NCBI GenBank assembly: GCA_034658815.1
Contig: JAYEFY010000048.1
Location: 62,020 to 126,019, forward strand
From: Patescibacteria group bacterium
GTDB taxonomy: Bacteria; Patescibacteriota; Minisyncoccia; Moranbacterales; DUUL01
Length of the DNA stretch: 64,000 bases
Direction: 5' to 3'
The stretch's first letter is position 1, and the number at the start of each line of letters is the position of its first letter. Positions 5,354 through 55,239 of the stretch are shown one piece after another. Under the pieces are notes generated by a model. It was given only the letters and a program-made list of their open reading frames with translations, was not told where the DNA came from and searched no databases. Both the position numbers and the translations under genes were made by a program.

Positions 5354-5471
5354 AGAGCCTGTCTGAGAACCCCATATCCTGCTGCAATTTCTCCTCCAGA
5401 GGCGGACAAGCATATTTTGGCTGTCCCGCTTAGGCGGGATCGCAACGAAGAGGGTTTTCAGACAGGCTCTT
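5354..5471 (+). repeat. structured intergenic element, family 1 copy A (putative ncRNA or miniature mobile element)
   Basis: 5' agagcctgtctgagaaccc pairs with 3' gggttttcagacaggctct (19 bp). Inner hairpin cccgc-ttag-gcggg. Homologous to 14363-14484 and 39957-40083 with compensatory changes in both stems. Confidence 0.6.
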
Positions 5472-5532
5472 AAAACAAAAAGCATTGTTGAAAAAAATAT
5501 CTTATGTTATCCTATAGTATAGTCCGTTAAGA

Positions 5533-8118: not shown

Positions 8119-8817
8119 ATGTTGCTTGGAGGACTGCAAAAATTAACTCTGATCGATTATCCGGGTAAAATTGCCGCGACAGTGTTTACGGTCGGATGCA
8201 ATTTCCGTTGTCCATTCTGCCATAATCCTGAACTTGTTCTTGCGTGTCATAGAGCAGAACATAAGCTGTTTCCCGAAGAAGAATTTTTCGCGTTTATTGA
8301 CAAGCGAAAGAAGAAACTGGATGGTATTTGCATAACCGGCGGCGAACCGATGATCCAGCAAGATATTCTGGAGTTTATTCGGAAAATAAAAGACAGAGAA
8401 TTCTTGGTAAAACTTGATACAAATGGAGCCTACCCTGATGTTCTTAAAAAAGCTTTCGACATGGAACTTGTGGATTTTGTCGCAATGGATATAAAAGATT
8501 CCATTGAGCATTATTCAAAAGCATGTGGTGTTGACGTTGATACTGAACGAATAAAACTTAGCGTTAAACTTATACGAAGTTCAAGGGTTGATTACGAGTT
8601 TCGCACAACTGCTGTTCCGGGAATTCATACCTATAGTGATTTCGAGAAAATAGGGTTATGGCTCAAAGGATCAAAGAAGTATGTTATTCAAAAATATCAT
8701 GACGAAGGAAAAATTCTTGATGAAAAATTAAGAATAAGGCAAAAGAACAAAACAATAAATTTGGAAAAAATAAAGCAAAAGGCTCTTCCTTATTTTGGTC
8801 ATGTCGAAATACATTAA
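8119..8817 (+). CDS. radical SAM protein, anaerobic ribonucleotide reductase activase (NrdG, TIGR02495)-like
   Basis: LIDYPGKIAATVFTVGCNFRCPFCHNPEL (CxxxCxxC-like cluster plus preceding DYPGK) and TGGEP. Confidence 0.6.
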   Translation: MLLGGLQKLTLIDYPGKIAATVFTVGCNFRCPFCHNPELVLACHRAEHKLFPEEEFFAFIDKRKKKLDGICITGGEPMIQQDILEFIRKIKDREFLVKLDTNGAYPDVLKKAFDMELVDFVAMDIKDSIEHYSKACGVDVDTERIKLSVKLIRSSRVDYEFRTTAVPGIHTYSDFEKIGLWLKGSKKYVIQKYHDEGKILDEKLRIRQKNKTINLEKIKQKALPYFGHVEIH

Positions 8818-9292
8818 GTATCTAAGTTCTAACAAGAAGATTGGCGAAGATACTAAATTCAACGCAACAGAAAGCGAGCCTCATTTCCAATTTTTTGAAT
8901 ATTTAAGAAGTAATCTACGGTATATGAACAAAAAGAACAAGCTTATCGAAATTCAAAGGGAAATTGACAGAAAGATGGGGAATGAAATTATATTGGATAA
9001 GATCAGATCAGGTGAATACAGACTGCGAACAGGAGAGGCACTTGCCCTGGAGGATAGGCCGAGCTTTTATTCAGACAGGTTTGATAAAGAATTTGAAGAT
9101 ATCGTGAAATATATAGATCAGAACGAAAAACTGGATCTTAATAATCGCGAAATGAAAGGTCACGCTAACGAGCTTAAGCTACAAATGGATGAAGGAAGAG
9201 ACAAGTTGACAATGCGAATTAAAGAAAAAGACGGAAAAGAAAAAAGCGGGGAAAGCGGGAAAGAAAAGAAAAGAAAAAAGTCATTTTTTTAA
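8795..9292 (+). CDS. hypothetical protein (charged, K/E-rich C-terminus)
   Basis: ORF only. Overlaps the preceding gene by 23 nt. No recognisable motifs. Confidence 0.4.
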   Translation: MVMSKYIKYLSSNKKIGEDTKFNATESEPHFQFFEYLRSNLRYMNKKNKLIEIQREIDRKMGNEIILDKIRSGEYRLRTGEALALEDRPSFYSDRFDKEFEDIVKYIDQNEKLDLNNREMKGHANELKLQMDEGRDKLTMRIKEKDGKEKSGESGKEKKRKKSFF

Positions 9293-14292: not shown

Positions 14293-14362
14293 AAACCGTA
14301 AATTGGTAGATTAGAGCAAGTTTGACTTTTAAATAAAAATCGTATATAATCCGTGGGATACT

Positions 14363-14484
14363 AAGAGTTTGCTTGAAAACTCCATATCCTGCTGCTGCAA
14401 TTTCTCCTCCAGAGGCGAACAAGTATATTTTAGCTGTCGCCTAGGCGAGATCGCAGCGGAAGAGGGTTTTCAAGCAAACTCTAA
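14363..14484 (+). repeat. structured intergenic element, family 1 copy B
   Basis: agagtttgcttgaaaactcc / gggttttcaagcaaactct outer stem. Inner hairpin tcgcc-ta-ggcga. ~80% identical to copy A with covariation. Confidence 0.6.
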
Positions 14485-21880: not shown

Positions 21881-24800
21881 ATGATTAGATATTCCACTTT
21901 CCATAAATTTACAGGAATCGTAGCTGCGATTTTTGTGCTCGCGGTTATTGGTGTCGCAAAACATACACAGGCGGCAGTTCCTATTATCTCATTCTCTGCT
22001 GATTTGACTGTGATTCCGGTTAATACTTCAACGAATCTTAATTGGGACGTATCAGATGCGGTTTCCTGCACGGCATCCGGATCATGGGGCGGCAATCAGC
22101 CATTGTCAGGTACATATGATACGGGGAATTTGCTAAGCGACGCAACATATGTTTTAACATGCGTGGGCGATTTTGGAGAAACAAATTCAAGCCAAGTAAC
22201 AATTACTGTCGCTGATCCGCCGGAACTGACATTTTTTGCCGACAACACGACTATTCCATATAATACTTCAACTGACTTAAACTGGTCGTCGACTAATGCT
22301 GATTCATGCATTGCTTCCGGAGCATGGTCTGGCGATGTCGGAGTATTCGGAACATATAACACCGGAAATCTTATTTCCTCAAAAACATATACGCTTCAGT
22401 GCGCTGGTCCCGGAGGGACAGCCATGAAATCAGTACAAATTACGATCGAATCGCCGACATTACCGCCGGAACTTGATTTTAGCGCTGACAATTATTTTAT
22501 TGAATATAACGAATCGGTAACTTTACAATGGAGTTCAACGAATACTGATGCTTGTGTTGCTTCAGGGTCATGGTCAGGGGCAAAACCTCTTTCCGGAACG
22601 CAGGGCTCGGGTAATCTTCAGAGTGATAAGAATTATGTATTAACGTGTACCGGGGAAGGAGGGAGTATCACGCGATTTGTGGCAATTGTTGTCGCGCCGC
22701 AAGTTACTGATCCTCCCGAACTTACGTTTACGGCTGACGATCAAGATATAGACTATGGTACGTCAACAACCTTAAATTGGACTTCAATTAATGCGCATAC
22801 CTGCACGGCGTCCGGATCATGGAGCGGCAACCGGCCGTTATCGGGTACATATGATACCGGAGCATTATACGCAACAAAGGCATATACTTTAACTTGCGTA
22901 GGTGATGGTGGAAGCGTTTCGCAAAAGATCACAATTAATGTCGGCGAAAACCCATTTCCTTCGCCGACATTGAGTTTTACTGCCGATAATAATGCGATCC
23001 CATACGATTCTTCAACGAATTTAAATTGGAGTGTGGCAAACGCGACATCTTGCACGGCGTCAAAAGCATGGTCAGGGGCAAAATCGCTTACAGGCAGTGA
23101 AAATACGGGGAATTTAACAAGCGATAAAATATATCGATTAACCTGTACGGGACCGGGCGGCTCAGCAACAAAAGACGTGGCAGTCATAGTCGGTGATCCC
23201 ACTGTTCCGCCGAGTGTTTCCTTTTGGGCTGATGATTATAGCGTGAATTATAATTCCGGGACAGTTGTTAGATGGACGTCTGATGACGCGAATTGGTGCC
23301 AACTTTCATATGGCGCTTCAACGGAAAATGTTGCGCTTGATGGCAGTTACGCGACGGGAAATCTATTTGACAACACAATCTATTCTCTATCATGCGGGAA
23401 CGCGTCCGGAACAACCACAAGAACGCTAACGATTACAGTGAATATGGTTGGACCCGCGCCGACGATTAATTTGTGGGCTGACGAGAATCCGATTGATTAC
23501 GGTTCTTCGACTACTGTTCGCTGGACAACTGCGAATGCCGATGAATGCCAGATGTCCGGTGTCGGCGATGTCTCTGTAAACGGATCAATCGGAACAGGAA
23601 CATTGTATAGTCCGAAAACGTACACATTGTACTGTGTCGGACCCGGAGGGGAAGATGAGGACAGTTTAACGATCAATATTCGTGAAGATACAATTCCTTC
23701 TGATCCGCCTGATCTGTTGTTTTGGGCTGACAGCTATTTGCTTCTGGAAGGAGAAAATACTGACTTGCATTGGATTGCGTCAAATGCTGATTGGTGCCAG
23801 GCTTCATTGGGATGGTCGGGAAGCAAACCAACCAGCGGTGATCAGAATACCGGATCGTTGTATACCACTACCAGTTACAAATTGAAATGTGGAAACATTC
23901 GGGGAAGCGTATCAAAAACGCTTACGATTGAAATTGGAAACTTGCCTGACGTACAGTTGGATTTTTGGGCCGATGAATACAGTGTTCCGAATAATGGCAA
24001 CACAACTTTGCGTTGGAATTCAGCAAACGCGAACTATTGCCGGACTCTTGGAGGTGAATGGGGTTGGAATAACCCCAAGCCGCTTAATGGAACGGAAAAT
24101 ACCGGACCACTTTCGAATTACGCGAATTTATATGTTTTGCAATGCGTAAACTGGCTTTCATCGGAAACGAAGTCCGTAACAATATTTGCGGGTGATCCTC
24201 CTCCAAGCGTGTCATTCTACGCGGCCAGTTATACTATTGGTTATAATACGCCGGCAACACTCTTTTGGAATGCGTTTAATTCCACATATTGTGAAGCCTG
24301 GTCGAATAATCCGGAGGAACTAACCTGGAACGAAAATAACATGGTAGTTTCCGGATCGCAGCAGACAACAAATCTTAGGAGTAATACCAGGTTCTATATT
24401 CGCTGTTATGGTCCCGGCGGGACCATAACGAAAAGATTAACAGTAAGGGTAGCGTCTCCGAACGCTCAAGTTCCGACAATAAGCTTTTGGGCGGATGACT
24501 ATATTGTACCCGAAAACGGATCTACCGTTGTGCATTGGACAAGCCAGAACGCGGATGGATGCAAGGCCATTTCAACTCCTGATGTCGTTGGGTGGAGCGG
24601 AAATAAAACGACAAGCGGAAACAATAACGTAGGGCCATTTATTCAAAATTCGGAACTGCAGCTTATTTGCTGGAACGGGTCAGCGTCCAGTTCAGCGATA
24701 CTTAATATTCAGGTCGGGGAAGGTACGATTGCGAGACCAAGCTTAAGTTTCTGGGCGGATGCTTATTCTTTGGCAGCCGGAGATTCCACGTGGCTTCGCT

Positions 24801-25675
24801 GGAGTGTACTTAACGCTAATGGCGGCACTTGCGTAGCTTCAGGAGACTGGAGCGGCAATAAAAGTACGGGAACAGGCAGTGAAAACACCGGTCCGATAGC
24901 GGTGCCTAAACATTATATTCTCACATGCAGTAATGAAGCAGGAGAAGTCTCGAGCTTTGTTGATATAAACGTAGGAGGACCGGCTGCTCCGCCTACACTG
25001 ACATTTCTTGCTGATGACTATGATATCGAAGACGGACAGGAAGTAATGCTGACATGGACAAGTACCAATGCGGCAAATTGTTTTGCAACCAATGATCCAT
25101 CCGGGCAATGGAGCGGAAGTGTGATGTTAAACGGCAATAAAAATGTTACGCCGCATTTTACGACAACATACGCATTAACGTGTATAGGGGACGGAGGCAG
25201 TATTACGGTAAATGTGCGGGTTTCAGTAGCCAAAGTTATTGTTTGCCCTTCAGATGTACAACTCAAAAAAGGCAGAATCAGGCAGCTTGAGGCGTGGTAC
25301 AAAGAAGATGCTGATATTAATTTCTCATGCGAGAATCTTGCCGGGGCAATGAATGTAACAAGTAAAACCGTTCCGTTTCCAACCAGCTGGTCTACTTCTG
25401 ACAGCAGTCTTGTTTCTCTGCAGGGAACGCCGGGTTTGATCAAAGCAGAGGATTATACTATGGGAACGGTAAATGTGTGTGCGGAATATAAAGAAATTAA
25501 GGGGTGCGCCGGAGTGCAAGTTGTCTTAACATGCTGGCAATGCGAAACTGACGGATCATGCTCTCCCGTTCCCGTTCCGCATGACACATGTCCGGAACCG
25601 TATTTTTCAGATAAAGCGTCATGCCTGCGTGTTTGCGGGTTAAAGTGGGGAAGTTGGAGAGAAGTTACTCCGTAA
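21881..25675 (+). CDS. giant cell-surface protein with ~13 tandem ~90-aa Ig-like repeats, a Big_2-like domain and a Cys-rich C-terminus
   Basis: N-terminal signal/TM. Repeat consensus P.L.F.AD......STNLNW.S.NA..C.ASG.WSG...L.GT..TGNL.....Y.L.C.G.GG. C-terminal ...CWQCETDGSCSP...C...CGL. Confidence 0.75.
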   Translation: MIRYSTFHKFTGIVAAIFVLAVIGVAKHTQAAVPIISFSADLTVIPVNTSTNLNWDVSDAVSCTASGSWGGNQPLSGTYDTGNLLSDATYVLTCVGDFGETNSSQVTITVADPPELTFFADNTTIPYNTSTDLNWSSTNADSCIASGAWSGDVGVFGTYNTGNLISSKTYTLQCAGPGGTAMKSVQITIESPTLPPELDFSADNYFIEYNESVTLQWSSTNTDACVASGSWSGAKPLSGTQGSGNLQSDKNYVLTCTGEGGSITRFVAIVVAPQVTDPPELTFTADDQDIDYGTSTTLNWTSINAHTCTASGSWSGNRPLSGTYDTGALYATKAYTLTCVGDGGSVSQKITINVGENPFPSPTLSFTADNNAIPYDSSTNLNWSVANATSCTASKAWSGAKSLTGSENTGNLTSDKIYRLTCTGPGGSATKDVAVIVGDPTVPPSVSFWADDYSVNYNSGTVVRWTSDDANWCQLSYGASTENVALDGSYATGNLFDNTIYSLSCGNASGTTTRTLTITVNMVGPAPTINLWADENPIDYGSSTTVRWTTANADECQMSGVGDVSVNGSIGTGTLYSPKTYTLYCVGPGGEDEDSLTINIREDTIPSDPPDLLFWADSYLLLEGENTDLHWIASNADWCQASLGWSGSKPTSGDQNTGSLYTTTSYKLKCGNIRGSVSKTLTIEIGNLPDVQLDFWADEYSVPNNGNTTLRWNSANANYCRTLGGEWGWNNPKPLNGTENTGPLSNYANLYVLQCVNWLSSETKSVTIFAGDPPPSVSFYAASYTIGYNTPATLFWNAFNSTYCEAWSNNPEELTWNENNMVVSGSQQTTNLRSNTRFYIRCYGPGGTITKRLTVRVASPNAQVPTISFWADDYIVPENGSTVVHWTSQNADGCKAISTPDVVGWSGNKTTSGNNNVGPFIQNSELQLICWNGSASSSAILNIQVGEGTIARPSLSFWADAYSLAAGDSTWLRWSVLNANGGTCVASGDWSGNKSTGTGSENTGPIAVPKHYILTCSNEAGEVSSFVDINVGGPAAPPTLTFLADDYDIEDGQEVMLTWTSTNAANCFATNDPSGQWSGSVMLNGNKNVTPHFTTTYALTCIGDGGSITVNVRVSVAKVIVCPSDVQLKKGRIRQLEAWYKEDADINFSCENLAGAMNVTSKTVPFPTSWSTSDSSLVSLQGTPGLIKAEDYTMGTVNVCAEYKEIKGCAGVQVVLTCWQCETDGSCSPVPVPHDTCPEPYFSDKASCLRVCGLKWGSWREVTP
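21974..25217 (+). repeat. in-frame tandem coding repeats, ~270-bp period, ~13 units (diverged)
   Basis: Periodic recurrence of ...NW.S.NA..C.ASG.WSG... blocks in the translation. Units are ~40-60% identical. Confidence 0.6.
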
Positions 25676-25747: not shown

Positions 25748-25749
25748 AT

Positions 25750-25909
25750 TACCTTGAATTACGAAATGGCTTTTACTGCGGTTTCCGCACGAGCGCGATT
25801 TCATCTTTCAAGCTCAATTTTGGTAGCCCTGCTGCGAAAAATCTCGCTTTCAAGCGAACTCGCGCTCGTGCAAAACCCTTGCTACAAACCCATTTCGTAA
25901 TTCAAGGTT
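25750..25909. repeat. ~160-bp extended imperfect palindrome (19-bp perfect outer arms plus nested inner arms)
   Basis: Outer arms accttgaattacgaaatgg / ccatttcgtaattcaaggt. Inner arms ccgcacgagcgcga / tcgcgctcgtgc. Lies in the efp 3' region. Confidence 0.55.
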
Positions 25910-25926
25910 ATTAGAAATGGATAGAT

Positions 25927-30983: not shown

Positions 30984-31094
30984 CGGCAAAATTGTTATTA
31001 GGGATTGTTGCCAAACTAACTTGCTCTGAAAAAAAGCACACTTTATTAAATATTTTCTATTATTTTTTGCAGCTAAAATTATTATTTTTCCGTA

Positions 31095-32204
31095 ATGGGA
31101 ATAAAAATAACAATCGAAAAAGATACAAAACCAAAAAAGGCGAAAGCAAAATCCTTGAAAAAGGTTCGAAGATCGAAAAAAGAAACACCCAAGCGAAAAA
31201 AGGCGGCATCGCAGTTGCGTCATGATCTGACAACAGGAGACTGGGTGGTTATTGCGACCAGCAGGAAAGCGCGTCCGGATGATTTCAAGGATGGCAAATC
31301 GAAGGCAAAACCAAAAGAAGATGATAATGTGAAAAAATGTTTGTTTTGCGACCCCGTCGCTTCAAGACAAGCGCCGGACGTCTTGATCTACAATACATCT
31401 GATGGCGATTGGTCTTTGCGCGTTTTTCCAAACAAATATCCGGCGTTTTCCCGTCCGTCGAGCGGACGCATCCGGCACGAAGAAGAAGGTCCTTATTTTT
31501 GGATGGATGGCGTGGGATATCACGAAGTTATTGTCACAAAAGACCACAAGAAACACATTGGACAAATGGATCCTTTGCGCGTTGCGGAGATTTTTGATGC
31601 TTACCAAATGAGATATATAGAGCTTATGAATAAAAAATCGGTTCGTTATATTGAGATCTTTCATAATCATGGGAAAGCCGCCGGAGCATCTATAACTCAT
31701 CCGCATTCTCAGCTTGCCGCAATTCCTATCATTTCCCCATATGTCAATCTGGAATTGAAGAGTTCGGAGTTATATTATGAAGCAAATAACCAATGCGTCT
31801 TTTGCACTATGATCGAGTGGGAGTTGGAACACAGAAAGCGAATCGTATTTGAAAATGAAATGTTCGCAGTATTCTGCCCGTTTGCGTCGCGAGCGGCATT
31901 TGAAATGTTTGTAATTCCAAAAAAACACAAGTCATATTTTGAGCGTTCTTCTGACGAGGAAAAAGTGGCTGGCGGAGAAGCGCTTCACGAGGCTATTCGA
32001 AAACTGGATGCCGTGCTTGGGAAGCCGTCCTATAATTTCTATCTTCAAACATCACCATGTGACGGAAAAGACTATCCGTATTTTCATTGGCATATAGAAA
32101 TACTTCCGCGTACTTCAACGTGGGCAGGCTTTGAGCTTTCAACCGGCGTCGAGGTTTCCGCGATCGAACCGGAGCGTGCGGCTGAATATCTTCGAAAAGC
32201 TTAA
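31095..32204 (+). CDS. galactose-1-phosphate uridylyltransferase-like HIT-superfamily nucleotidyltransferase
   Basis: KCLFCDPVA zinc motif, FPNKYPAF, HPHSQLAAIP (GalT HxHxQ). K-rich N-terminal extension. Confidence 0.7.
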   Translation: MGIKITIEKDTKPKKAKAKSLKKVRRSKKETPKRKKAASQLRHDLTTGDWVVIATSRKARPDDFKDGKSKAKPKEDDNVKKCLFCDPVASRQAPDVLIYNTSDGDWSLRVFPNKYPAFSRPSSGRIRHEEEGPYFWMDGVGYHEVIVTKDHKKHIGQMDPLRVAEIFDAYQMRYIELMNKKSVRYIEIFHNHGKAAGASITHPHSQLAAIPIISPYVNLELKSSELYYEANNQCVFCTMIEWELEHRKRIVFENEMFAVFCPFASRAAFEMFVIPKKHKSYFERSSDEEKVAGGEALHEAIRKLDAVLGKPSYNFYLQTSPCDGKDYPYFHWHIEILPRTSTWAGFELSTGVEVSAIEPERAAEYLRKA

Positions 32205-32230
32205 AGATAAAATTTGAGTATTCTATTGCT

Positions 32231-34090: not shown

Positions 34091-34119
34091 ATAAAATGTA
34101 AGATATAACAAGGGACTGT

Positions 34120-34250
34120 CTCCAAACTAACTTCTACCGAAAATTTCCTAATCCCGAGTACTCGGGACCAATGCCCCAAGCAGGTGTTCGCTAAAAGCGG
34201 GGCAGTACTCCGTTTTTAGCAGGCGACAGGCAGGGAAGCTGGCTTGGAAA
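34120..34250 (+). repeat. GC-rich modular intergenic repeat, family 2 full-length copy (upstream of fba)
   Basis: gactgtctccaaac...gaaaatttcctaatcccg | agtactcgggaccaatgcc...GC hairpins | cagggaagctggcttggaaac, ending 16 nt before the ATG. Confidence 0.45.
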
Positions 34251-34265
34251 CACCCCTATAAATTT

Positions 34266-35123: not shown

Positions 35124-35450
35124 TAGCCGGCTAGTGATACATCATTTAAAAACCTAACCGTAGCCCTTATCGATTTATCATTAAAAACCTGACTGACTGA
35201 AGGATAAATATAATTAAGACTATCTTTTTTAACAAATTAAATTTCTTTTAACTTTTTATCAATTTTTCTTTTTAATTCTGCTGGATTAAGTGTAGCATAA
35301 ATCTTTCTTAATTTCTCTTTTTCTTTTTCAGAAATGTAGAAAGATTCGGTTTTCGTAAAAAGCAAAAAACAGGCCAATAAAAAAGAGGATTAGAAAAACT
35401 TTGTGAATATGTTTTTCCAATCCCCGCGAAAGTTAGTTTTTGAGTCCTGA

Positions 35451-35783
35451 TTATTCCTCTAAGGATTTTAAATACTCCTTAGCATTTGCAGCTTCTCTAA
35501 TTGCATGGAGCAATATACTCGAGTTAAGCAATTTGGGCGCATCTTCTACTATTGTAGTAAGGCTAGCCACTATGTCAGTTGTCATTTCATTTGTTATTGT
35601 TTCTATATCTCTATGAGACAATAACTCTATATGTCCCCTTAGCCATGATACATTATCATGCAATAGATTTGTACCTTTAAGTAAGCTGGCCATTAAAGTA
35701 GCAGTCGAATTAGCTATTGCTTCAGCTGATTCACTTGCTCTTCTCAGATTTTTATTTTTTAATGATTTGCTTCTATCTTCCAC
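35451..35783 (-). CDS. hypothetical protein
   Basis: ORF only, within the AT-rich IS-associated region. Confidence 0.3.
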   Translation of the reverse strand: MEDRSKSLKNKNLRRASESAEAIANSTATLMASLLKGTNLLHDNVSWLRGHIELLSHRDIETITNEMTTDIVASLTTIVEDAPKLLNSSILLHAIREAANAKEYLKSLEE

Positions 35784-35935
35784 TTTTCCCTCCTTATCCT
35801 ACTCACAATAATTTAAGTGTTTTTTCCAAAGAACATTTTTTATTGCCTTAAGCCAATCTCAAGGCGATACAAAAGCGTAGCAAAACACAATAAAAAAGTC
35901 AAGGCCTATTTTATGAGTTTTTATTTCACTTAGCA

Positions 35936-35969
35936 TAATCACTTTTATGCATATGCATAAAAGTGATTA
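35936..35969. repeat. perfect 34-bp palindrome taatcacttttatgcat|atgcataaaagtgatta at the 3' side of the transposase gene
   Basis: Read directly. Followed by a second hairpin cctctcgtcacg-gt-cgtgagcagagg at 35990-36015. Confidence 0.7.
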
Positions 35970-36069
35970 CATTAAAATTTTTTACCTCTCGTCACGGTCG
36001 TGAGCAGAGGTGAAATTTGGAAATTGTTATTATAATAAGTTTCGCTTGTTGAGAATTCACTTGTTGCGG

Positions 36070-36957
36070 CTAAGTAAAGCGCGTGCAATAAATAAACGAC
36101 AAAAAGATGCCAACCAGTTTTCTAACATGAGTCCAGTTCTTTTGCTCGATATGAGCATTGTCATTTTTCTTGTAAGGTCTGCCTCTGGTAAATTCAATAT
36201 CCTTTTCAATGCAATGTCTGTATAGCTGCCAATTGATAAATTCGCCTCCATTATCAGGATCAATTCCTTTTAAAGAAAAGGGTAGTCTTTCTTCGATATT
36301 ATCTAATCCTTTTTTAATCCTGATTTGAGCTTTTCCCATGACAGCTATGCTTTCTGTCCATTGAGTGCTGATATCAGTAAAAGTAAGGCTATTTATGAAT
36401 TCTCCAGAAGCAGAGTGTCCGCAATGAGCTACCGTATCCAATTTGCCAAATCCAGCTCTTTTCTCATCCCAAGAGGAAGTTTTAATGGGGATTTGTTTTT
36501 TTAACATACTTCCCGGTTTAGTAGTGGAAAATACTTTTTTCTTTTTGATTCTCTTGCTTCTTTTCAGTCTTCTATCAATAGTAGCTGATGATATCTTTAA
36601 TAATTTCTCTTTAACAGAATCAGTAAAAGAAACTTCTTCAAACTTTTCTAAAACTTCAATATATTCAGGAAGCATCGGAGCTAAATTCTGTCCGCAAGGA
36701 TAATCAAATATTTCCCAAATCTTTTTTAACTTCACAATAACATAACCGTCATATTTCTCCCTTCTTTTTCTGTTGATCGGATTGGCATAATCCAAATCTA
36801 TCTTAACGGAAAGTATTTGAATTAAATAGTTTCTGTTTAAAGTTGTGTTAACGCAAAGCTCATCTAAGATACTCCCTTTGCCTGTTCTGTTTGATTTTAA
36901 ATATCTCACCTTAACCTTTTTAACTAATTCTTTTTTAGATTTTTGACTCATTTCCAT
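36070..36957 (-). CDS. DDE transposase (rve integrase-core, IS481/IS3-like), possibly C-terminally truncated
   Basis: N-terminal HTH-like region. LDTVAHCG (D1), GIDPDNGGEFIN (D2), NAHIEQKN (E) in DDE spacing. Very AT-rich. Confidence 0.7.
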   Translation of the reverse strand: MEMSQKSKKELVKKVKVRYLKSNRTGKGSILDELCVNTTLNRNYLIQILSVKIDLDYANPINRKRREKYDGYVIVKLKKIWEIFDYPCGQNLAPMLPEYIEVLEKFEEVSFTDSVKEKLLKISSATIDRRLKRSKRIKKKKVFSTTKPGSMLKKQIPIKTSSWDEKRAGFGKLDTVAHCGHSASGEFINSLTFTDISTQWTESIAVMGKAQIRIKKGLDNIEERLPFSLKGIDPDNGGEFINWQLYRHCIEKDIEFTRGRPYKKNDNAHIEQKNWTHVRKLVGIFLSFIYCTRFT

Positions 36958-37270
36958 AGAGATAGTTATTAATTATTACTATCTCCAAGGTTAGATTTTA
37001 AATGATTTATCGTATAGGCTTTGGGTTAGGTTTTGGATGATTTAATTCGCGGCTTTGACAGTTTCTCTAAAAAAATGTACAGTACATGGCAGGGATTTGA
37101 ATAGATATAAATATAGAGTAGAAATGCTTAACAAATAGATAAAAACATTGCAGCCGCTTGCAACTGAAAACATTAGCAAAGTGATTTATTCAATGGAAAC
37201 CAATTTTTTTTTGCACACACATTTGTTTTTGAATGTTCTTTTGTGCTTAAAATAAACACTGTTTAAATTT

Positions 37271-39954: not shown

Positions 39955-39956
39955 TA

Positions 39957-40083
39957 AGAGCCTGTTTGAAAATCCCACATCCTGCTGTAATTTCTTCTCC
40001 AGAAGCCAGAGGCAGACAAGCATATTTTGGCTGCCATGCTTCGGCAGGATCGCAACGGAGAAGGGTTTTCAAACAGACTCTTA
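39957..40083 (+). repeat. structured intergenic element, family 1 copy C
   Basis: aagagcctgtttgaaaatccc / gggttttcaaacagactctt outer stem. Inner hairpin ctgcc-atgcttc-ggcag. 12-nt insertion relative to A and B. Starts 3 nt after the yjbQ stop. Confidence 0.6.
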
Positions 40084-40168
40084 GTTTGTAAGTTCGTTAA
40101 AATGTTATTGGAAACAATACCTTATCGCATTCGGAAGAATGCGTTTTTTGATGCAAAGACCGCGGTGC

Positions 40169-41013: not shown

Positions 41014-41234
41014 CTTACCAGTCATGGAGATTGAGAAAATTACCGGCTAATTAGTACTTTCCAAGATTATTTCCCAAGGTTCAACCTCAAGTATTCTGGG
41101 TTGAACCTTAAAACCGGAATTTTTTACGCTGGAGCAGGCTTGCAGCCCGGTCCAGCGCGAGAAACTAAAGGACCGGGCTGCTAATACACATTTTAACCGG
41201 AATTAGCTTTTTAGAGCTCATTCTAGCAAAAAGT

Positions 41235-42287
41235 GCCATATGTGTTTAGACATTACCAAAATGTTTTATGCACACTCTTTTGTCGGTCTTTGTATTTTAA
41301 TTAAATTATAATTTTCTAAAAATTGATTAGGGCTTTTTCCATTTAAGCTACAATGCCTTAAATCATTGTAATACATATTCCATAATCTAACACGATATTT
41401 CAATTCATCAATACTAGCAAACTTTTCTCGAGAGTATAATCTTCTCTGATCGCTTCCATGGCTTCTTTCAACAGTGCCATTCTGAGCTGGCTTTCCTGGA
41501 TCAATTAAGTAGTGAATAATTTTATTCTTGGCGCAAAACTTATCCAAGTAGTGAAGCTTGGGGTTAAAGGGGTCGGCGCTTTTCAAATAACCGGTATATC
41601 TATTGGTAAATGTGGAATGATTATCTGTCTTTACGGCTCTAATTTCAAAAGGAGCCTTTCTAATTATTTTTTCTAGAAACTTAACAGAGTGGCAATTAGA
41701 TTGTTCGTCATATATTTCCATGTGTCTCCACCTGCTGGACAAGTCTATAGCTGTATACTGATAATATTGCTTATTGGCGACTTTTCCCGGAACATACTTA
41801 ACATCTATTTCAATTATTTCTCCGGGTTTCAATTCACTTCTAATATATTTATACTTCACTCTCTTAATTCTATATTTCCTGACTAAGCCTTCTGTTTTTA
41901 ATATTTTACCGACAGTTCTTTCGTGAATATTGATATTTTCATCTTTTAAATCCCATTTTATCTTTAAAGCGCATTCTTTCTTTTCTTTCCTTAATTCAAT
42001 AACCCTTTCTTTTACTCTAATGGAAGTTTCTTTGGGATTAGTTTTGGGCCTAGTTGATTTAGGAATCAATTCCTCCTCCCCATATTTCTTATACAAGGAA
42101 ATCCATCTTTCTAAACTTCTTTGGCTGTAAGGACATACTTTAGCGGCGTCTTTTAATTTTACTTCTTTGTTATAGATGGGAAGCACCCACCTTAACCTTT
42201 CTTCTTTAATTGTTTTTGGCATATTTATACACATACATGAGAATAATACTATTCTCAGAAAACCGCCATAGGTGTGTGCACATTACC
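41235..42287. mobile_element. IS481-like element bounded by imperfect 24-bp direct repeats
   Basis: gccatatgtgtttagacattacca at 41235-41258 and gccataggtgtgtgcacattacca at 42264-42287 (20/24 identical, same orientation) bracket the transposase gene. No clear terminal inverted repeats found. Confidence 0.45.
41266..42234 (-). CDS. IS481-family transposase (HTH + rve DDE integrase core)
   Basis: N-terminal HTH. KTDNHSTFT (D2), DPGKPAQNGTVERSHGS (E region). 322 aa single ORF, typical of IS481. Confidence 0.8.
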   Translation of the reverse strand: MCINMPKTIKEERLRWVLPIYNKEVKLKDAAKVCPYSQRSLERWISLYKKYGEEELIPKSTRPKTNPKETSIRVKERVIELRKEKKECALKIKWDLKDENINIHERTVGKILKTEGLVRKYRIKRVKYKYIRSELKPGEIIEIDVKYVPGKVANKQYYQYTAIDLSSRWRHMEIYDEQSNCHSVKFLEKIIRKAPFEIRAVKTDNHSTFTNRYTGYLKSADPFNPKLHYLDKFCAKNKIIHYLIDPGKPAQNGTVERSHGSDQRRLYSREKFASIDELKYRVRLWNMYYNDLRHCSLNGKSPNQFLENYNLIKIQRPTKECA

Positions 42288-42408
42288 AGTTTCGCTTGAC
42301 AAAAGATTAAAAGTGGTGTAGAATGTGGCTGAAAGTAGAAGAACAAGTTTTTTAAAAACCTAGATCCGAAATGAAGAACGGATTAAAAGAATATACGGAG
42401 GCATAACT

Positions 42409-47212: not shown

Positions 47213-48472
47213 ATGCAAACAAAACAGGCCTTTACTATTTATGATATTGAAGCTGATGAATTCAAAACTCCTGTTCAAAGCCTTCCCTTATGGAAACTTT
47301 TACTTGAAGCCAGCGGAGTTTTTGTAGTAATTACGTTTATCGTTTTTTTTATTGCCAACTATCAGTACATTCAAAGCCAGCTTGTCGATTGGAGACAAGT
47401 AAAAACCGATGGGAAAGATTTTGTTAAGGATAATGATAATGATAAAATGCCTGACTGGTGGGAGCAGTCTTACGGGCTTAATACAGCAGACTCAATGGAT
47501 GGGATGAAAGACGAGGATAATGATCTTATGCCGAATATTATGGAGTTTCAATTCGGCACGGATCCGCGAAATCCGGACACTGACGGCGATGGATATTTTG
47601 ACGGTGAAGAATATCTGAATGGGTATAATCCAAATGGAGTTGGAAGAATTGACACGGATAAAGATGGAATTCACGATTGGTGGGAAGAATCGAACGGTCT
47701 CAACAAAAAAGACCCAGCTGATAGCTTGCTTGATTATGATAATGATCAGCTCAATAATAAAGAAGAATATGAATATGGCACTAATCCGCGAAATCCGGAC
47801 ACTGACGGCGATGGTTATTCTGATAAGCAAGAAATTAATAGAGGATCTAATCCAATAGGCCGGGGTTTTCTTAATGAGACATCAAAGAATAGCGGCAAAG
47901 ATAAAGATCTTGATAAGCTTGAAATAGATTACGAAAATTTATTTGGAACAGATCCTGAAAATAGAGACACTGACGGCGACGGTTTTAATGACTATCACGA
48001 GTTGACAAGAGGATATGATCCCTCAGGTTCCGGCATGATAGACGCCGTTATTGAAATTCCATCAATTGATGTCGAGGCGCCGATTATTTGGTCTCAAAGC
48101 GAAAAGGAAAAGGAAATTTTGAATGATCTCAGCGATGGAGTCATTCATTATCCGGGAAGCGCTTTCCCCGGGATGCGCGGCAATGTTTATATAACCGGAC
48201 ACAGCAGTTTTTACAGTTGGAGTAAAAGCTCATGGAAAGAAATTTTTAAAGACATCGAACGGCTGGAAAATGGCGACGAAGTGATATTCCACCTGAAACT
48301 TAAAAATAAAAAAAATATTGATATTGTTTATGAAATTTGCTTGTCGGAAATTGTGCAGCCGGATGACGTTCGCTTGTTCAGAGATTATGAAGGATATGAA
48401 TTGACGCTTGTTACATGCTGGCCGATTGGAACAGATCTTAAACGCCTGATGGTAAAGGGCGTTCTTAAGTAG
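47213..48472 (+). CDS. sortase-family transpeptidase with N-terminal TM and three thrombospondin type-3-like Ca-binding repeats
   Basis: N.RNPDTDGDG(Y/F).D x3 (TSP3 D.D.DG..D). C-terminal sortase fold with conserved His (YITGHSSF) and TLVTCWP (TLxTC catalytic Cys). Confidence 0.7.
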   Translation: MQTKQAFTIYDIEADEFKTPVQSLPLWKLLLEASGVFVVITFIVFFIANYQYIQSQLVDWRQVKTDGKDFVKDNDNDKMPDWWEQSYGLNTADSMDGMKDEDNDLMPNIMEFQFGTDPRNPDTDGDGYFDGEEYLNGYNPNGVGRIDTDKDGIHDWWEESNGLNKKDPADSLLDYDNDQLNNKEEYEYGTNPRNPDTDGDGYSDKQEINRGSNPIGRGFLNETSKNSGKDKDLDKLEIDYENLFGTDPENRDTDGDGFNDYHELTRGYDPSGSGMIDAVIEIPSIDVEAPIIWSQSEKEKEILNDLSDGVIHYPGSAFPGMRGNVYITGHSSFYSWSKSSWKEIFKDIERLENGDEVIFHLKLKNKKNIDIVYEICLSEIVQPDDVRLFRDYEGYELTLVTCWPIGTDLKRLMVKGVLK

Positions 48473-53519: not shown

Positions 53520-55037
53520 ATGAGCAAAAATATTTCTGATATTACACAGGAAATTGATGATGTGCTTGAAATGAGCGCATCGGCAAAAAAATCTTTAAAG
53601 AGCAATAAAAATAGTTCTCTAATGAAACAGCTTCTTGAAGATCATCCTATGAAGATGCTGCAAGTCGGTGAAAAAATAGAAGGGCTTGTTGTAGGAATTG
53701 ATTCCAAAGCATTATATATCGATCTTGAATTATTCGGTTCGGGCATTGTCTACGGCAAAGAAATTAAAGATGGCTTTGGGGCAAACAGAAAAAAACTTGA
53801 AATTGGCGATAAAGTTGTGGCTGTTATACAAGATCTTGAAAATGAAGATGGCTATGTCGAGTTATCGATTCGTGAAGCTGTTCTTGAGGAAGTATGGAAG
53901 GATCTTATCCAAAAGAAAGATAGCCGTGAACCGGTTGATACAAAGATTCTTGATGCAAATAAAGGCGGTCTTATGGTTGAAATTAATGGTGTAACGGGAT
54001 TTATGCCCGTAAGCCAGTTGACATCGGAACATTATCCTCGCGTTGAAGACGGGGATAAAAATAAAATTCTTGAGATCTTAAGGACTTATATCGGTACCGA
54101 AATGTCGGTAAGTGTTTTAGATGTTGATCAACAGGAAGACAAACTTATTGTTTCTGAAAAAGAGGCAAATCGTGACAAGGAAAAAACAGCGATTTCCGAG
54201 CTTAAGGTCGGAAATATAATTGAAGGAGACGTGAGCGGGGTTGTTGACTTTGGCGCGTTTGTCAAATTTTTTCCGCCTTCAAAAAAAGGTTCAATGAGAG
54301 AAGAAGATAAACTCGAAGGACTTGTGCATATATCACAACTTGATTGGCAGTTAATTGATGATCCGCGAAAAATTATTAAAGTTGGTGATAGGATCAAAGC
54401 AAAAATTATCTCCATTGATGACACGAGAATTTCACTATCTGTTAGAGATCTCAAGAAAGATCCTTGGGTTGCAGCCAATGAAAAATATGGCAAGGACGAT
54501 ATCGTCAAAGGAAAAGTGCACAAAATCAACCATTTCGGAGCATTTGTATATCTTGATAACGACATTCATGGACTGGCCCATGTTAGCGGTTTTGAAGCAT
54601 ATCCGCAGAAAGGCATAGACGAAATTGTTAAAATAGGTGAGGAATACATGTGGCAAATTATGTCGATAGAGCCAAGCGAGCACCGTATGGGGCTTAAATA
54701 TGCTGGTGAAACCGAAAAAGTGAAGCCCTCTAAAGTTGGCGAACGAAAGGAGATCAGAGAGCCGGGAAATAAAAAAGAAGATAAAAAGAATTTTAAGAAC
54801 AGGAAGAAGAAAGAAGACAAAAAAGAAATGAGAAAAAGCGTGAAAAATGGAGGAGAGCCGAAGGATAAAAAGGAAGAGAGAAAGAAGAAAAAAGACGATG
54901 ATAAAAATGGCAAGAAGAAAAAACGAGACGGTAAGAAAGAATCGGATAAGAAAAAAGAGCCGAAAGATAAGAATGGCGGCGAGAAAAAAGAAAAGAAGGA
55001 TAAAAAGATAAAAACCGATAATAAAAGTCTGTCTTAA
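53520..55037 (+). CDS. rpsA: 30S ribosomal protein S1 (four S1 domains) with K/E-rich tail
   Basis: Repeated S1 OB-fold domains (G..V.G.V......GAFV.), ~120-aa Lys/Glu/Asp-rich C-terminus. Confidence 0.85.
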   Translation: MSKNISDITQEIDDVLEMSASAKKSLKSNKNSSLMKQLLEDHPMKMLQVGEKIEGLVVGIDSKALYIDLELFGSGIVYGKEIKDGFGANRKKLEIGDKVVAVIQDLENEDGYVELSIREAVLEEVWKDLIQKKDSREPVDTKILDANKGGLMVEINGVTGFMPVSQLTSEHYPRVEDGDKNKILEILRTYIGTEMSVSVLDVDQQEDKLIVSEKEANRDKEKTAISELKVGNIIEGDVSGVVDFGAFVKFFPPSKKGSMREEDKLEGLVHISQLDWQLIDDPRKIIKVGDRIKAKIISIDDTRISLSVRDLKKDPWVAANEKYGKDDIVKGKVHKINHFGAFVYLDNDIHGLAHVSGFEAYPQKGIDEIVKIGEEYMWQIMSIEPSEHRMGLKYAGETEKVKPSKVGERKEIREPGNKKEDKKNFKNRKKKEDKKEMRKSVKNGGEPKDKKEERKKKKDDDKNGKKKKRDGKKESDKKKEPKDKNGGEKKEKKDKKIKTDNKSLS

Positions 55038-55153
55038 AAGTCCACGCTCTACTGCAAATTCCAGATTCCGGCTGTTCCGAGTGCTCACTCAGGATTTATC
55101 ACTCGTCCCATCACTCGCGAACGATGGAACTCGCTCGCCGCGGCGAGTACTCC

Positions 55154-55225
55154 GCATATGCTTCCTTGTGCTTCATCCCGCCTCGGCGGGATCGCGGCGA
55201 AAGAAATTTTCAAAACAGGCTTTTA
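55154..55225 (+). repeat. structured intergenic element, family 1 partial/degenerate copy D (3' half)
   Basis: gcatatgc...cccgcc-tc-ggcgggatcgcggcgaaagaaattttcaaaacaggctttt aligns with the 3' half of copies A-C. The 5' half is replaced by an unrelated GC-rich hairpin region. Confidence 0.45.
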
Positions 55226-55239
55226 GTAATGACAAAGTG

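What the first reader, a model, noticed from the sequence alone, without database searches (positions are those of the whole stretch)
5354..5471. Four-copy ~120-nt intergenic element whose stems are maintained by compensatory mutations: candidate new structured RNA or miniature mobile element
Copies sit at 5354-5471, 14363-14484, 39957-40083, plus a 3'-half remnant at 55154-55225. All are on the + strand. Each begins 3-70 nt after the stop codon of a +strand gene (P-type ATPase, adk-like, yjbQ, rpsA). The 19-bp outer stem differs between copies but stays complementary. In copy A it is ...cctgtctgagaaccc / gggttttcagacagg.... In copy B it is ...tttgcttgaaaactc / gggttttcaagcaaa.... In copy C it is ...cctgtttgaaaatcc / gggttttcaaacaga.... 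An internal 5-6-bp hairpin is rebuilt with four different sequences: cccgc/gcggg, tcgcc/ggcga, ctgcc/ggcag, cccgcc/ggcggg. Single-stranded blocks (uccugcug(c/u)aauuuc, gacaag(c/u)auauuuu(g/a)gcug, gaucgca(a/g)cg) are conserved. No conserved reading frame exists, since copy C has a 12-nt insertion that shifts the frame. I could not match the motif to tRNA, SRP, 6S, tmRNA, RNase P, hammerhead or twister cores. The alternatives are a 3'-UTR or terminator-like structured RNA, a PATE/MITE-like non-autonomous element with an insertion preference just past stop codons, or a guide/scaffold RNA for a factor encoded elsewhere.
Basis: seen in the sequence. Interest (0 to 1): 0.8.

Follow-up and report, generated by a model that had tools for sequence, protein, structure and literature searches.

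The report
New miniature transposon family in CPR bacterium
The repeated ~120-base hairpin element is real, but it behaves like a small non-coding jumping gene (a MITE) that has recently inserted between genes of one candidate-phyla-radiation lineage, and there is no evidence yet that it is a new functional RNA.

Summary
Three ~120-nt copies lie at 5354-5470, 14364-14482 and 39957-40081. The fourth is a 200-nt composite at 55024-55223, not a half remnant. All share a 19-20-bp terminal stem kept by compensatory changes: 93.9% of cells paired against 86% in shuffles, and 12 pairs changed on both sides against 4.4. No Rfam family matches.

Comparison with the nearest genome, MAG CSMAG_106 (about 91% protein identity), shows a mobile insertion. 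Site B is precisely empty there, and the window has the element plus a duplicated TA/TAA. Site C is empty there. A copy after galT is present there and absent here. Site D is empty in more distant relatives. Relatives at 72-85% identity had no copy in about 130 kb. An unrelated GC-rich contig carries a 216-nt hairpin element with identical 17-nt termini, TTA flanks and a different interior.

Best reading: a lineage-specific MITE of the Correia/ERIC/RUP kind, co-transcribed in untranslated regions, mobilised by an unidentified transposase. Compensatory stem changes are also reported for mobile REPINs, so they do not establish an RNA function. Hints of extra constraint remain: uniform orientation (6 of 6 insertions) and a 30-nt block invariant between orthologous copies.

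The parts
5354..5470 (+). Copy A, long form. It is flanked by T(5353) and TA(5471-5472). It lies 12 nt after the stop codon of the P-type ATPase gene and upstream of the conserved TTGAAA..TATAGT block before ftsK.
   Evidence: 150.7 bits. An orthologous copy is present in CSMAG_106 at L002 566-683.
5354..5372 (+). 5' arm of the outer stem of copy A. It pairs with 5452-5470.
5452..5470 (+). 3' arm of the outer stem of copy A.
5424..5439 (+). Inner hairpin of copy A (TCCCGC-TTAG-GCGGGA). Its sequence varies between copies but it stays paired.
   Evidence: helix 2, 90% of cells paired.
14364..14482 (+). Copy B, long form, flanked by TA/TAA on both sides. It is a precise insertion relative to CSMAG_106.
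   Evidence: 129.1 bits. Empty site in L070: GGATAC-TA-CGCT.
14322..14350 (+). Near-consensus promoter (TTGACT-17-TATAAT) 13 nt upstream of copy B. This places B in the 5' leader of the lepB-hisS transcript. It is conserved in CSMAG_106, which lacks the element.
39957..40081 (+). Copy C, long form with a 7-nt internal duplication. TA lies on both sides (39955-39956 and 40082-40083). It starts 2 nt after the yjbQ stop codon.
   Evidence: 128.7 bits. The site is empty in CSMAG_106 at L022 7480-7490.
40126..40143 (+). Intrinsic terminator of yjbQ, downstream of copy C. It is present in both genomes, so copy C lies inside the 3' untranslated region and is not itself the terminator.
55024..55223 (+). 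Copy D, a divergent composite. It has a 5' arm, a short-form core with hairpin 1 (TTCCGAGTGCTCACTCAGGA), about 70 nt of extra sequence, then a long-form 3' part with hairpin 2 (TCCCGCCTCGGCGGGA) and the 3' arm. TA lies on both sides (55022-55023 and 55224-55225). The 5' arm encodes the last 4 codons and the stop codon of rpsA.
   Evidence: (family D5). The rpsA-cmk spacer is only 26 nt in L066 and 87 nt in L067.
32202..32212 (+). Empty site after galT (TAAAGATAAAA). CSMAG_106 has a short-form copy here at L022 1699-1797.

Best explanation
The element is a lineage-specific miniature inverted-repeat transposable element (MITE). It is a non-coding DNA element of about 100-125 bp with 19-20-bp terminal inverted repeats, (TA)-(A)GAGCCTGYTTGAAAAC...GTTTTCAARCAGGCTC(T)-(TA).

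**Shown**
- The element is gained or lost at individual intergenic sites between two genomes about 91% identical in protein.
- At least one insertion is precise and carries a 2-3-bp duplication (TA or TAA).
- There is a long and a short subfamily, and one chimeric copy.
- Relatives at 72-85% protein identity lack it.
- The same termini bound an unrelated interior in a GC-rich contig.

**Inferred**
- A transposase encoded elsewhere in the genome recognises the conserved termini and moves the element in trans. Candidates are IS630/mariner-like or IS5-family enzymes with 2-3-bp duplications.
- Every copy lies in a transcribed spacer in the sense orientation: a 3' untranslated region, a 5' leader, or between cistrons. 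It is therefore copied into mRNA, where its arms form a 19-20-bp stem.
- As with the Correia and ERIC elements, that stem probably alters processing or stability of neighbouring messages, as a double-strand RNase target or an exonuclease block.
- The compensatory changes reflect either selection to keep the hairpin (as RNA or as single-stranded DNA) or template-switch correction within an imperfect palindrome.
For: **Insertion polymorphism**
- Site B is empty and clean in CSMAG_106.
- Site C is empty in CSMAG_106.
- The galT site is filled in CSMAG_106 and empty here.
- Site D is empty in relatives at 73-75% identity.
- Site A is filled in both close genomes but not in L068.

**Termini and copies**
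- All 7 copies carry TA/TWA on both sides.
- Terminal inverted repeats and the long hairpin are seen.
- No reading frame is conserved across the copies.
- There are 4 copies in 64 kb here and 3 in about 31 kb of CSMAG_106.
- D and the galT copy share a 26-nt deletion, which defines a short subfamily. D is chimeric.
- L037 at 8668-8886 has identical 17-nt termini, TTA on both sides, an unrelated interior and a long hairpin.

**Negative searches**
- No Rfam family matches.
- No copy was found in about 130 kb of relatives.

**Known parallels**
- Bacterial MITEs have these same properties: terminal inverted repeats, a target-site duplication, TA at the termini, stem-loop transcripts, RNase III cleavage and orientation-dependent effects (PMC2229807; PMC10969869).
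- Mobile REPINs show compensatory hairpin changes (PMC3116915).
Against: - No transposase with matching termini was found. The only recognisable transposase in the window (rve type, 41266-42234) has different ends.
- The length of the duplication cannot be fixed. TA is its own reverse complement, and only 3 of 7 independent insertions have identical 3-bp flanks.
- The C and galT sites are not clean. They differ by an extra ~20 nt and 6 nt respectively.
- The arms vary more than the unpaired core, the reverse of what is usual when terminal repeats are the transposase site.
- All 6 independent insertions have the same orientation (two-sided p about 0.03).
- The orthologous copies A and L002 differ at 15% of positions against 23.4% at four-fold sites, and share an invariant 30-nt block. 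This hints at constraint beyond mobility.
Confidence: 0.75

Rival explanations
1. It is a functional structured RNA module that happens to be dispersed. It could be a cis-acting element of untranslated regions or a small RNA. On this view the conserved unpaired blocks bind a protein or form a catalytic core, and the stems are kept by selection at the RNA level.
For: - Covariation in both helices.
- The core is more conserved than the arms.
- A 30-nt block is invariant between orthologous copies, against 23.4% divergence at four-fold sites.
- All six insertions are in the sense orientation.
- The + strand has 5 G-U wobbles against 2 C-A mismatches in the outer stems (hand count). This is not significant.
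Against: - The element is present or absent between genomes at 91% identity, so no single site needs it.
- The short subfamily lacks half of the most conserved block. One copy lacks the 5' arm and one is chimeric.
- Copies sit in different positions of transcripts: 5' leader, 3' untranslated region, between cistrons, and overlapping a stop codon.
- No Rfam family matches, even below threshold.
- The same termini enclose an unrelated interior in L037.
Confidence: 0.12
2. It is a palindromic element moved as single-stranded DNA by a tyrosine (HUH) transposase. That would make it REPIN/RAYT-like or IS200/IS605-derived (PATE-like). The inner hairpin would be the recognised unit, and orientation would be set by the direction of replication.
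For: - All copies have the same orientation on the strand with positive GC skew, the presumed leading strand.
- Compensatory hairpin changes are described for REPINs.
- The inner hairpin sequence TCCCGAGTACTCGGGA also occurs alone at 34152-34167 and, with 2 mismatches, at 2606-2621. That is 4 matches against 0.07 expected, like REP singlets.
- The two halves of the element are weakly similar in inverted orientation (direct reading).
Against: - The 19-20-bp terminal inverted repeats and TA/TWA flanks, with a duplication at site B, are not features of IS200/IS605-type elements as I recall them.
- L037 shares the termini, not the hairpin.
- No Y1 or RAYT gene is seen in the window, although only part of the genome was examined.
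Confidence: 0.1
3. It is a transcription terminator or attenuator that was duplicated. It would act through alternative pairing, since GGCGGAC can pair with the 5' strand of the inner hairpin.
For: - In A, B and C the segment upstream of the hairpin can pair with the hairpin's 5' strand and changes in step with it (direct reading).
- Several copies follow stop codons.
Against: - No U tract follows either stem. The terminator scan finds none inside any copy.
- Copy C lies upstream of the real terminator.
- The alternative pairing is lost in the CSMAG_106 copies.
- Copy B lies behind a promoter.
Confidence: 0.03

Closest known systems
Correia / NEMIS elements of Neisseria (bacterial MITE)
   Same: They share a size of about 100-155 bp, long terminal inverted repeats (24-26 bp there, 19-20 bp here) and TA at the termini with a target duplication. 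Both are intergenic, are co-transcribed with neighbouring genes, and give a transcript that folds by pairing of the 5' and 3' ends. Both have length subfamilies (PMC2229807; PMC10969869).
   Different: There is no sequence similarity. No IHF site or outward promoter was found here. RNase III cleavage has not been tested. The host is a candidate-phyla-radiation bacterium. All copies seen so far have one orientation.
ERIC (enterobacterial repetitive intergenic consensus)
   Same: ERIC is about 127 bp, forms an imperfect palindrome and lies in transcribed intergenic regions. Its effect on mRNA stability depends on orientation. Copies are present or absent between strains. From memory, Wilson and Sharp 2006 also discuss conservation of its structure.
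   Different: ERIC is listed with only a 7-bp terminal repeat and is spread across a whole family of bacteria. This element has been seen in only two closely related MAGs.
RUP of Streptococcus pneumoniae (mobilised by IS630-Spn1)
   Same: RUP is about 107 bp, inserts at TA and has stop codons in all frames. Its terminal repeats match those of a resident IS.
   Different: RUP has a known partner IS and none was found here. RUP's terminal repeat is 9 bp.
REPINs (REP doublets mobilised by RAYT)
   Same: Both are hairpin-forming elements of about 100 nt in extragenic space, with compensatory changes across the hairpin. Here there are also possible singlet hairpins elsewhere in the window.
   Different: REPINs are defined by two inverted REP units and a linked RAYT gene. 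Here the halves are only weakly alike, TA/TWA flanks with a duplication are present, and no RAYT gene was seen.
Element in IMG/VR contig IMGVR_UViG_3300003323_001438 (L037 8668-8886)
   Same: It has identical termini (TAGAGCCTGTTTGAAAA / TTTTCAAACAGGCTCTTA), TTA on both sides, and a long hairpin fold.
   Different: It is 216 nt long, with a GC-rich interior unrelated to this family, in an unrelated GC-rich contig. The covariance model does not detect it.

Membership tests
Bacterial MITE (Correia/ERIC/RUP type) | Small size (about 50-300 bp) with no transposase or conserved reading frame | tested here: met
   Copies are 99-200 nt. The six-frame translations show no frame kept across the copies.
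Bacterial MITE (Correia/ERIC/RUP type) | Terminal inverted repeats | tested here: met
   The arms are 19-20 bp and 95% of cells are paired across the copies.
Bacterial MITE (Correia/ERIC/RUP type) | Short target-site duplication, or TA at the termini | tested here: met
   The site B empty/filled comparison gives a precise insertion plus TA or TAA. TA/TWA flanks all 7 copies and L037. The length (2 or 3 bp) is not resolved.
Bacterial MITE (Correia/ERIC/RUP type) | Several dispersed copies, with insertion polymorphism between related genomes | tested here: met
   There are 4 copies in the window and 3 in about 31 kb of CSMAG_106. Three sites differ between the two genomes.
Bacterial MITE (Correia/ERIC/RUP type) | A resident autonomous IS with matching terminal repeats | tested here: inconclusive
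   The rve transposase at 41266-42234 and the 1.9-kb insertion at 35149-37034 have different ends. The rest of the genome could not be read.
REPIN / REP-RAYT | Two inverted REP units around a spacer, with a RAYT gene in the genome | not testable with these tools
   The two halves are only weakly similar. Only 64 kb of the genome is available, and no Y1 transposase was seen among the proteins scanned.
IS200/IS605-derived PATE | Subterminal hairpins without terminal inverted repeats, and insertion without duplication next to a fixed 4-5-nt target (from memory) | tested here: not met
   The element has 19-20-bp terminal inverted repeats and a 2-3-bp duplication at site B.
Any Rfam 15 RNA family (including ribozymes, riboswitches, 6S, SRP, tmRNA) | A covariance-model score at or above the family's gathering threshold | tested here: not met
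   There are 0 hits in the window. Below threshold there are only plant miRNA-precursor hairpins and one chance sRNA match. No tRNA or tmRNA was found.
Intrinsic (Rho-independent) terminator | GC-rich stem followed directly by a U tract | tested here: not met
   No terminator-like site lies inside any copy. The real terminator of yjbQ lies downstream of copy C.

The most novel reading that the evidence does not exclude
The element is more than a selfish insertion. On this reading it is a mobile RNA-structure module that has been co-opted in a reduced candidate-phyla-radiation genome. The conserved unpaired core includes a 30-nt block that is invariant between orthologous copies, against 23% neutral divergence. 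That core, together with the strict sense orientation, would reflect a post-transcriptional role: a processing or stability signal for RNase III or RNase Y, a protein-binding site, or a new self-cleaving motif.
Probability: 0.12. Interest if true: 0.6.

Novelty: new member of a known kind. Interest (0 to 1): 0.3.

Why it matters
- Two full-text searches turned up no paper on MITEs in candidate-phyla-radiation bacteria. These genomes are usually described as small and streamlined.
- This window alone shows recent traffic relative to a relative at 91% protein identity. It holds this family, a second small-insertion family, a 1.9-kb element with terminal inverted repeats, an rve-type IS, and one more inverted-repeat element that has no comparison with the relative.
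- A syntenic relative has unrelated hairpin elements at the same spacers.
- The case is also a caution for RNA discovery. Convincing compensatory substitutions can arise in a mobile DNA hairpin, so covariation alone does not identify a functional RNA.
- If the orientation bias and the core conservation hold genome-wide, the family would be a tractable example of a MITE being recruited into mRNA control in an uncultured lineage.

Tried and rejected
**Known RNA families.** Rfam at gathering thresholds on the whole window gave no hits. At permissive E-values on L002 and on copy D it gave only long-hairpin plant miRNA models and one chance sRNA match. ARAGORN found nothing.

**Collection scans**
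- The genome collection scan with the core 22-mer found only CSMAG_106.
- The metagenome scan gave 19 hits, all chance on inspection and by covariance model.
- Five viral-contig scans gave chance hits apart from L037.
- blastn against plasmids and phages found nothing for copy A.
- 18-nt matches to the terminus in Ralstonia and Cohnella plasmids have no inverted partner and no transposase nearby, so they were treated as chance.
- A recurrent match in phage contigs lies inside a 786-aa gene.

**Extending the window.** Three look-ups of window proteins failed. The source MAG (HisRS MEA1926453.1, 130,751-nt contig) is not in the gene-position index (one search also failed).

**Candidate parent elements in the window.** The rve transposase and the 1.9-kb element have different ends.

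**Promoter or terminator function inside the element.** None was found.

**Coding potential.** Some frames are open in single copies but none is kept across copies.

**Strand of folding.** The count of G-U against C-A is 5 to 2 in favour of the + strand, which is not significant.

**Literature.** A search for the terminal sequence found only unrelated primers.

Full report
**1. The observation**

Copies A, B and C are present as described, all on the + strand. They align at about 80% identity. The core block GACAAGCATATTTTGGCTG occurs three times where 0.03 is expected. Each copy folds well below its shuffles, with z from -4.5 to -7.6. A covariance model built from five copies scores the window copies 129-151 bits.

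Copy D was mis-delimited. The repeat finder shows a 5' arm at 55024-55055 (family D5). The stretch 55020-55230 folds with that arm paired to the 3' arm. The 5' arm supplies the last four codons and the stop codon of rpsA. Internally D is a composite. It has a short-form 5' part with one hairpin, about 70 extra bases, then a long-form 3' part with a second hairpin. The extra piece in copy C is a 7-nt duplication, not 12 nt.

**2. Known RNA families**

Rfam finds nothing at gathering thresholds in the whole window. At permissive thresholds it finds only long-hairpin plant miRNA models and one chance sRNA match. No tRNA or tmRNA was found.

**3. Distribution**

- A scan of 185,579 species-representative genomes with a 22-nt core pattern found only one MAG, CSMAG_106 (GCA_030626045.1).
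- A metagenome scan gave only chance hits.
- SecA, S1 and HisRS searches show that CSMAG_106 is the nearest relative: 91% SecA identity, and 23.4% difference at 1,160 four-fold sites. The next relatives are at 72-85% identity.
- The window itself comes from an NCBI MAG labelled 'Patescibacteria group bacterium'. Its contig could not be extended.
- The covariance model finds no copy in about 130 kb from the more distant relatives L023-L025 and L066-L069.
- It finds three copies in about 31 kb of CSMAG_106 (L001, L002, L022; none in L070).

**4. Filled and empty sites**

| Site | Window | CSMAG_106 | More distant relatives |
|---|---|---|---|
| A (after P-type ATPase) | filled | filled (L002, orthologous) | L068: no copy |
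| B (before lepB) | filled | empty, clean | not informative |
| C (after yjbQ) | filled | empty | not examined |
| galT | empty | filled (short form) | not examined |
| D (rpsA-cmk) | filled | not recovered | empty: spacers of 26 and 87 nt |

- **Site B.** CSMAG_106 reads GGATAC-TA-CGCTATTTTATGGACAC. The window reads GGATAC-TA-[AGAGTTTGC...GCAAACTC]-TA-AGCTGTTTTATCGACAC. This is a precise insertion with a duplicated TA, or TAA. It lies just downstream of a promoter that both genomes share.
- **Site C.** CSMAG_106 goes from the yjbQ stop codon almost directly to the shared intrinsic terminator. The window has the element plus about 20 further bases.
- **galT site.** CSMAG_106 has a short-form copy whose TAGAG start provides the stop codon. 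The window has TAAAGATAAAA. That fits an empty TA site plus a 6-nt tandem indel.
- **Site D.** The window spacer is about 190 nt against 26 and 87 nt in the relatives.

The element has therefore been gained or lost at single sites, in both directions, since two close genomes split.

**5. Anatomy**

- All seven copies read [T/C][T/A]A-GAG...CTC-T[T/A]A. Put another way, each has TA on both sides of (A)GAG...CTC(T).
- D and the galT copy share a 26-nt deletion, which defines a short subfamily.
- The L001 copy lacks most of its 5' arm.
- No reading frame is conserved.
- No promoter-like or terminator-like site lies inside the element.

**6. A second element with the same ends**

A search of the fetched loci for inverted pairs of the terminus found L037, an IMG/VR contig. 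At 8668-8886 it holds tgTTA|GAGCCTGTTTGAAAAG...CTTTTCAAACAGGCTC|TTAgag. This element is 216 nt long with a GC-rich, unrelated interior. It folds as one long hairpin with z = -7.9 and has no Rfam match. Identical 17-nt termini around different interiors are what is expected if the termini are the recognition sites of a transposase family. This is an inference. No transposase was found next to any copy.

**7. The compensatory changes**

On a MAFFT alignment of seven copies, 93.9% of cells pair against 86.0% in shuffles (0 of 500 shuffles reach this). Twelve pairs show changes on both sides against 4.4 expected. Slid controls give 25-52% paired. A few of the counted changes come from the oddly aligned, truncated L001 arm. 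By hand, five positions of the outer stem show clean C-G to U-A exchanges, with wobble intermediates.

The orthologous pair A and L002 alone carries two adjacent exchanges on both sides: TC/GA against CT/AG.

This is real, but it does not separate RNA from mobile DNA. [quoted passage not shown] From memory, template switching in imperfect palindromes also makes arms complementary without selection. Gene conversion between copies could also move both arms at once.

The wobble count favours the + strand by 5 to 2, which is not significant.

**8. Signs of extra constraint**

- All six independent insertions are in the sense orientation, on the strand with positive GC skew. The two-sided probability is about 0.03. 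However, nearly all genes here share that strand, so transcription and replication cannot be told apart.
- A and L002 differ at 15% of positions against 23.4% at four-fold sites. A 30-nt block (AAGGCGGACAAGCATATTTTGGCTGTCCCG) is unchanged between them.
- Against a required function: the short subfamily lacks half of that block, and sites are dispensable between close genomes.

**9. Verdict**

The element meets the tested defining features of a bacterial MITE. These are small size, no coding capacity, terminal inverted repeats, short duplication or TA termini, multiple copies and insertion polymorphism. It resembles Correia, ERIC and RUP in size and in being co-transcribed as a long stem-loop (PMC2229807; PMC10969869).

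The partner transposase is unknown. IS5-family IS427-group elements with 2-bp repeats are documented in PMC3281130. IS630-type TA insertion is cited for RUP. A 3-bp TNA/TWA type is recalled from memory only.

This is a new family of a known kind, in a lineage where two full-text searches found no MITE literature. A functional-RNA reading is not excluded, but nothing requires it.

Noticed in passing
window 31000-31078 and 34101-34258 (related piece, inverted, at 2598-2648): This is a second family of small insertions that are absent from CSMAG_106. The two copies share a 33-nt start (AGGGAYTGT..CCAAACTAACTT). The 31000 copy is flanked by a direct TTATT repeat where CSMAG_106 has a single copy. 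The 157-nt copy sits between the TIM and FBP-aldolase genes.
   Followed up: partly
window 34152-34167 and 2606-2621; L002 636-651: The 16-nt palindrome TCCCGAGTACTCGGGA occurs alone in two intergenic spots. It is also the inner hairpin of the CSMAG_106 copy of this element (1 mismatch), and variants of it form the inner hairpins of copy D and the L001 copy. There are 4 matches with up to 3 mismatches against 0.07 expected. It may be a shared protein-binding or REP-like module.
   Followed up: partly
window 35132-37050: A 1.9-kb insertion is present relative to CSMAG_106. It has 45-nt terminal inverted repeats (35149-35193 and 36990-37034) and a 295-aa ORF (36070-36957, minus strand) with no Pfam match. 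It may be an unclassified mobile element.
   Followed up: partly
window 41017-42295: An insertion of about 1.3 kb is present relative to CSMAG_106. It carries an rve-integrase/HTH transposase ORF (41266-42234, minus strand) with about 22-nt inverted repeats that start TGCACAC. Two strong hairpins lie beside it at 41075-41115 and 41137-41186.
   Followed up: partly
window 25748-25911: Another inverted-repeat element with 26-nt arms (92% complementary) and an inner GC-rich inverted repeat. It lies after the terminator of the 1264-aa repeat protein gene and is unrelated in sequence to the family studied.
   Followed up: no
L068 296-402 and 8712-8850: A syntenic relative (HisRS 85% identical) has unrelated hairpin elements of about 100-130 nt in the same two spacers that hold copies A and B here. 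Their folds have z about -4. These spacers seem to be repeatedly colonised.
   Followed up: partly
window 5485-5525: A 31-nt stretch downstream of copy A (TTGTTGAAAAAAATATCTTATGTTATCCTAT) is identical in CSMAG_106, although four-fold sites differ by 23%. It is probably the ftsK promoter region.
   Followed up: no
window 21881-25675 and 47213-48472: A 1264-aa protein has internal repeats of about 240-500 nt (families D2, D3, D6). A sortase-linked protein has three TSP3-like repeats (47543-48023). L001 holds a paralogue or diverged homologue of the large protein.
   Followed up: no
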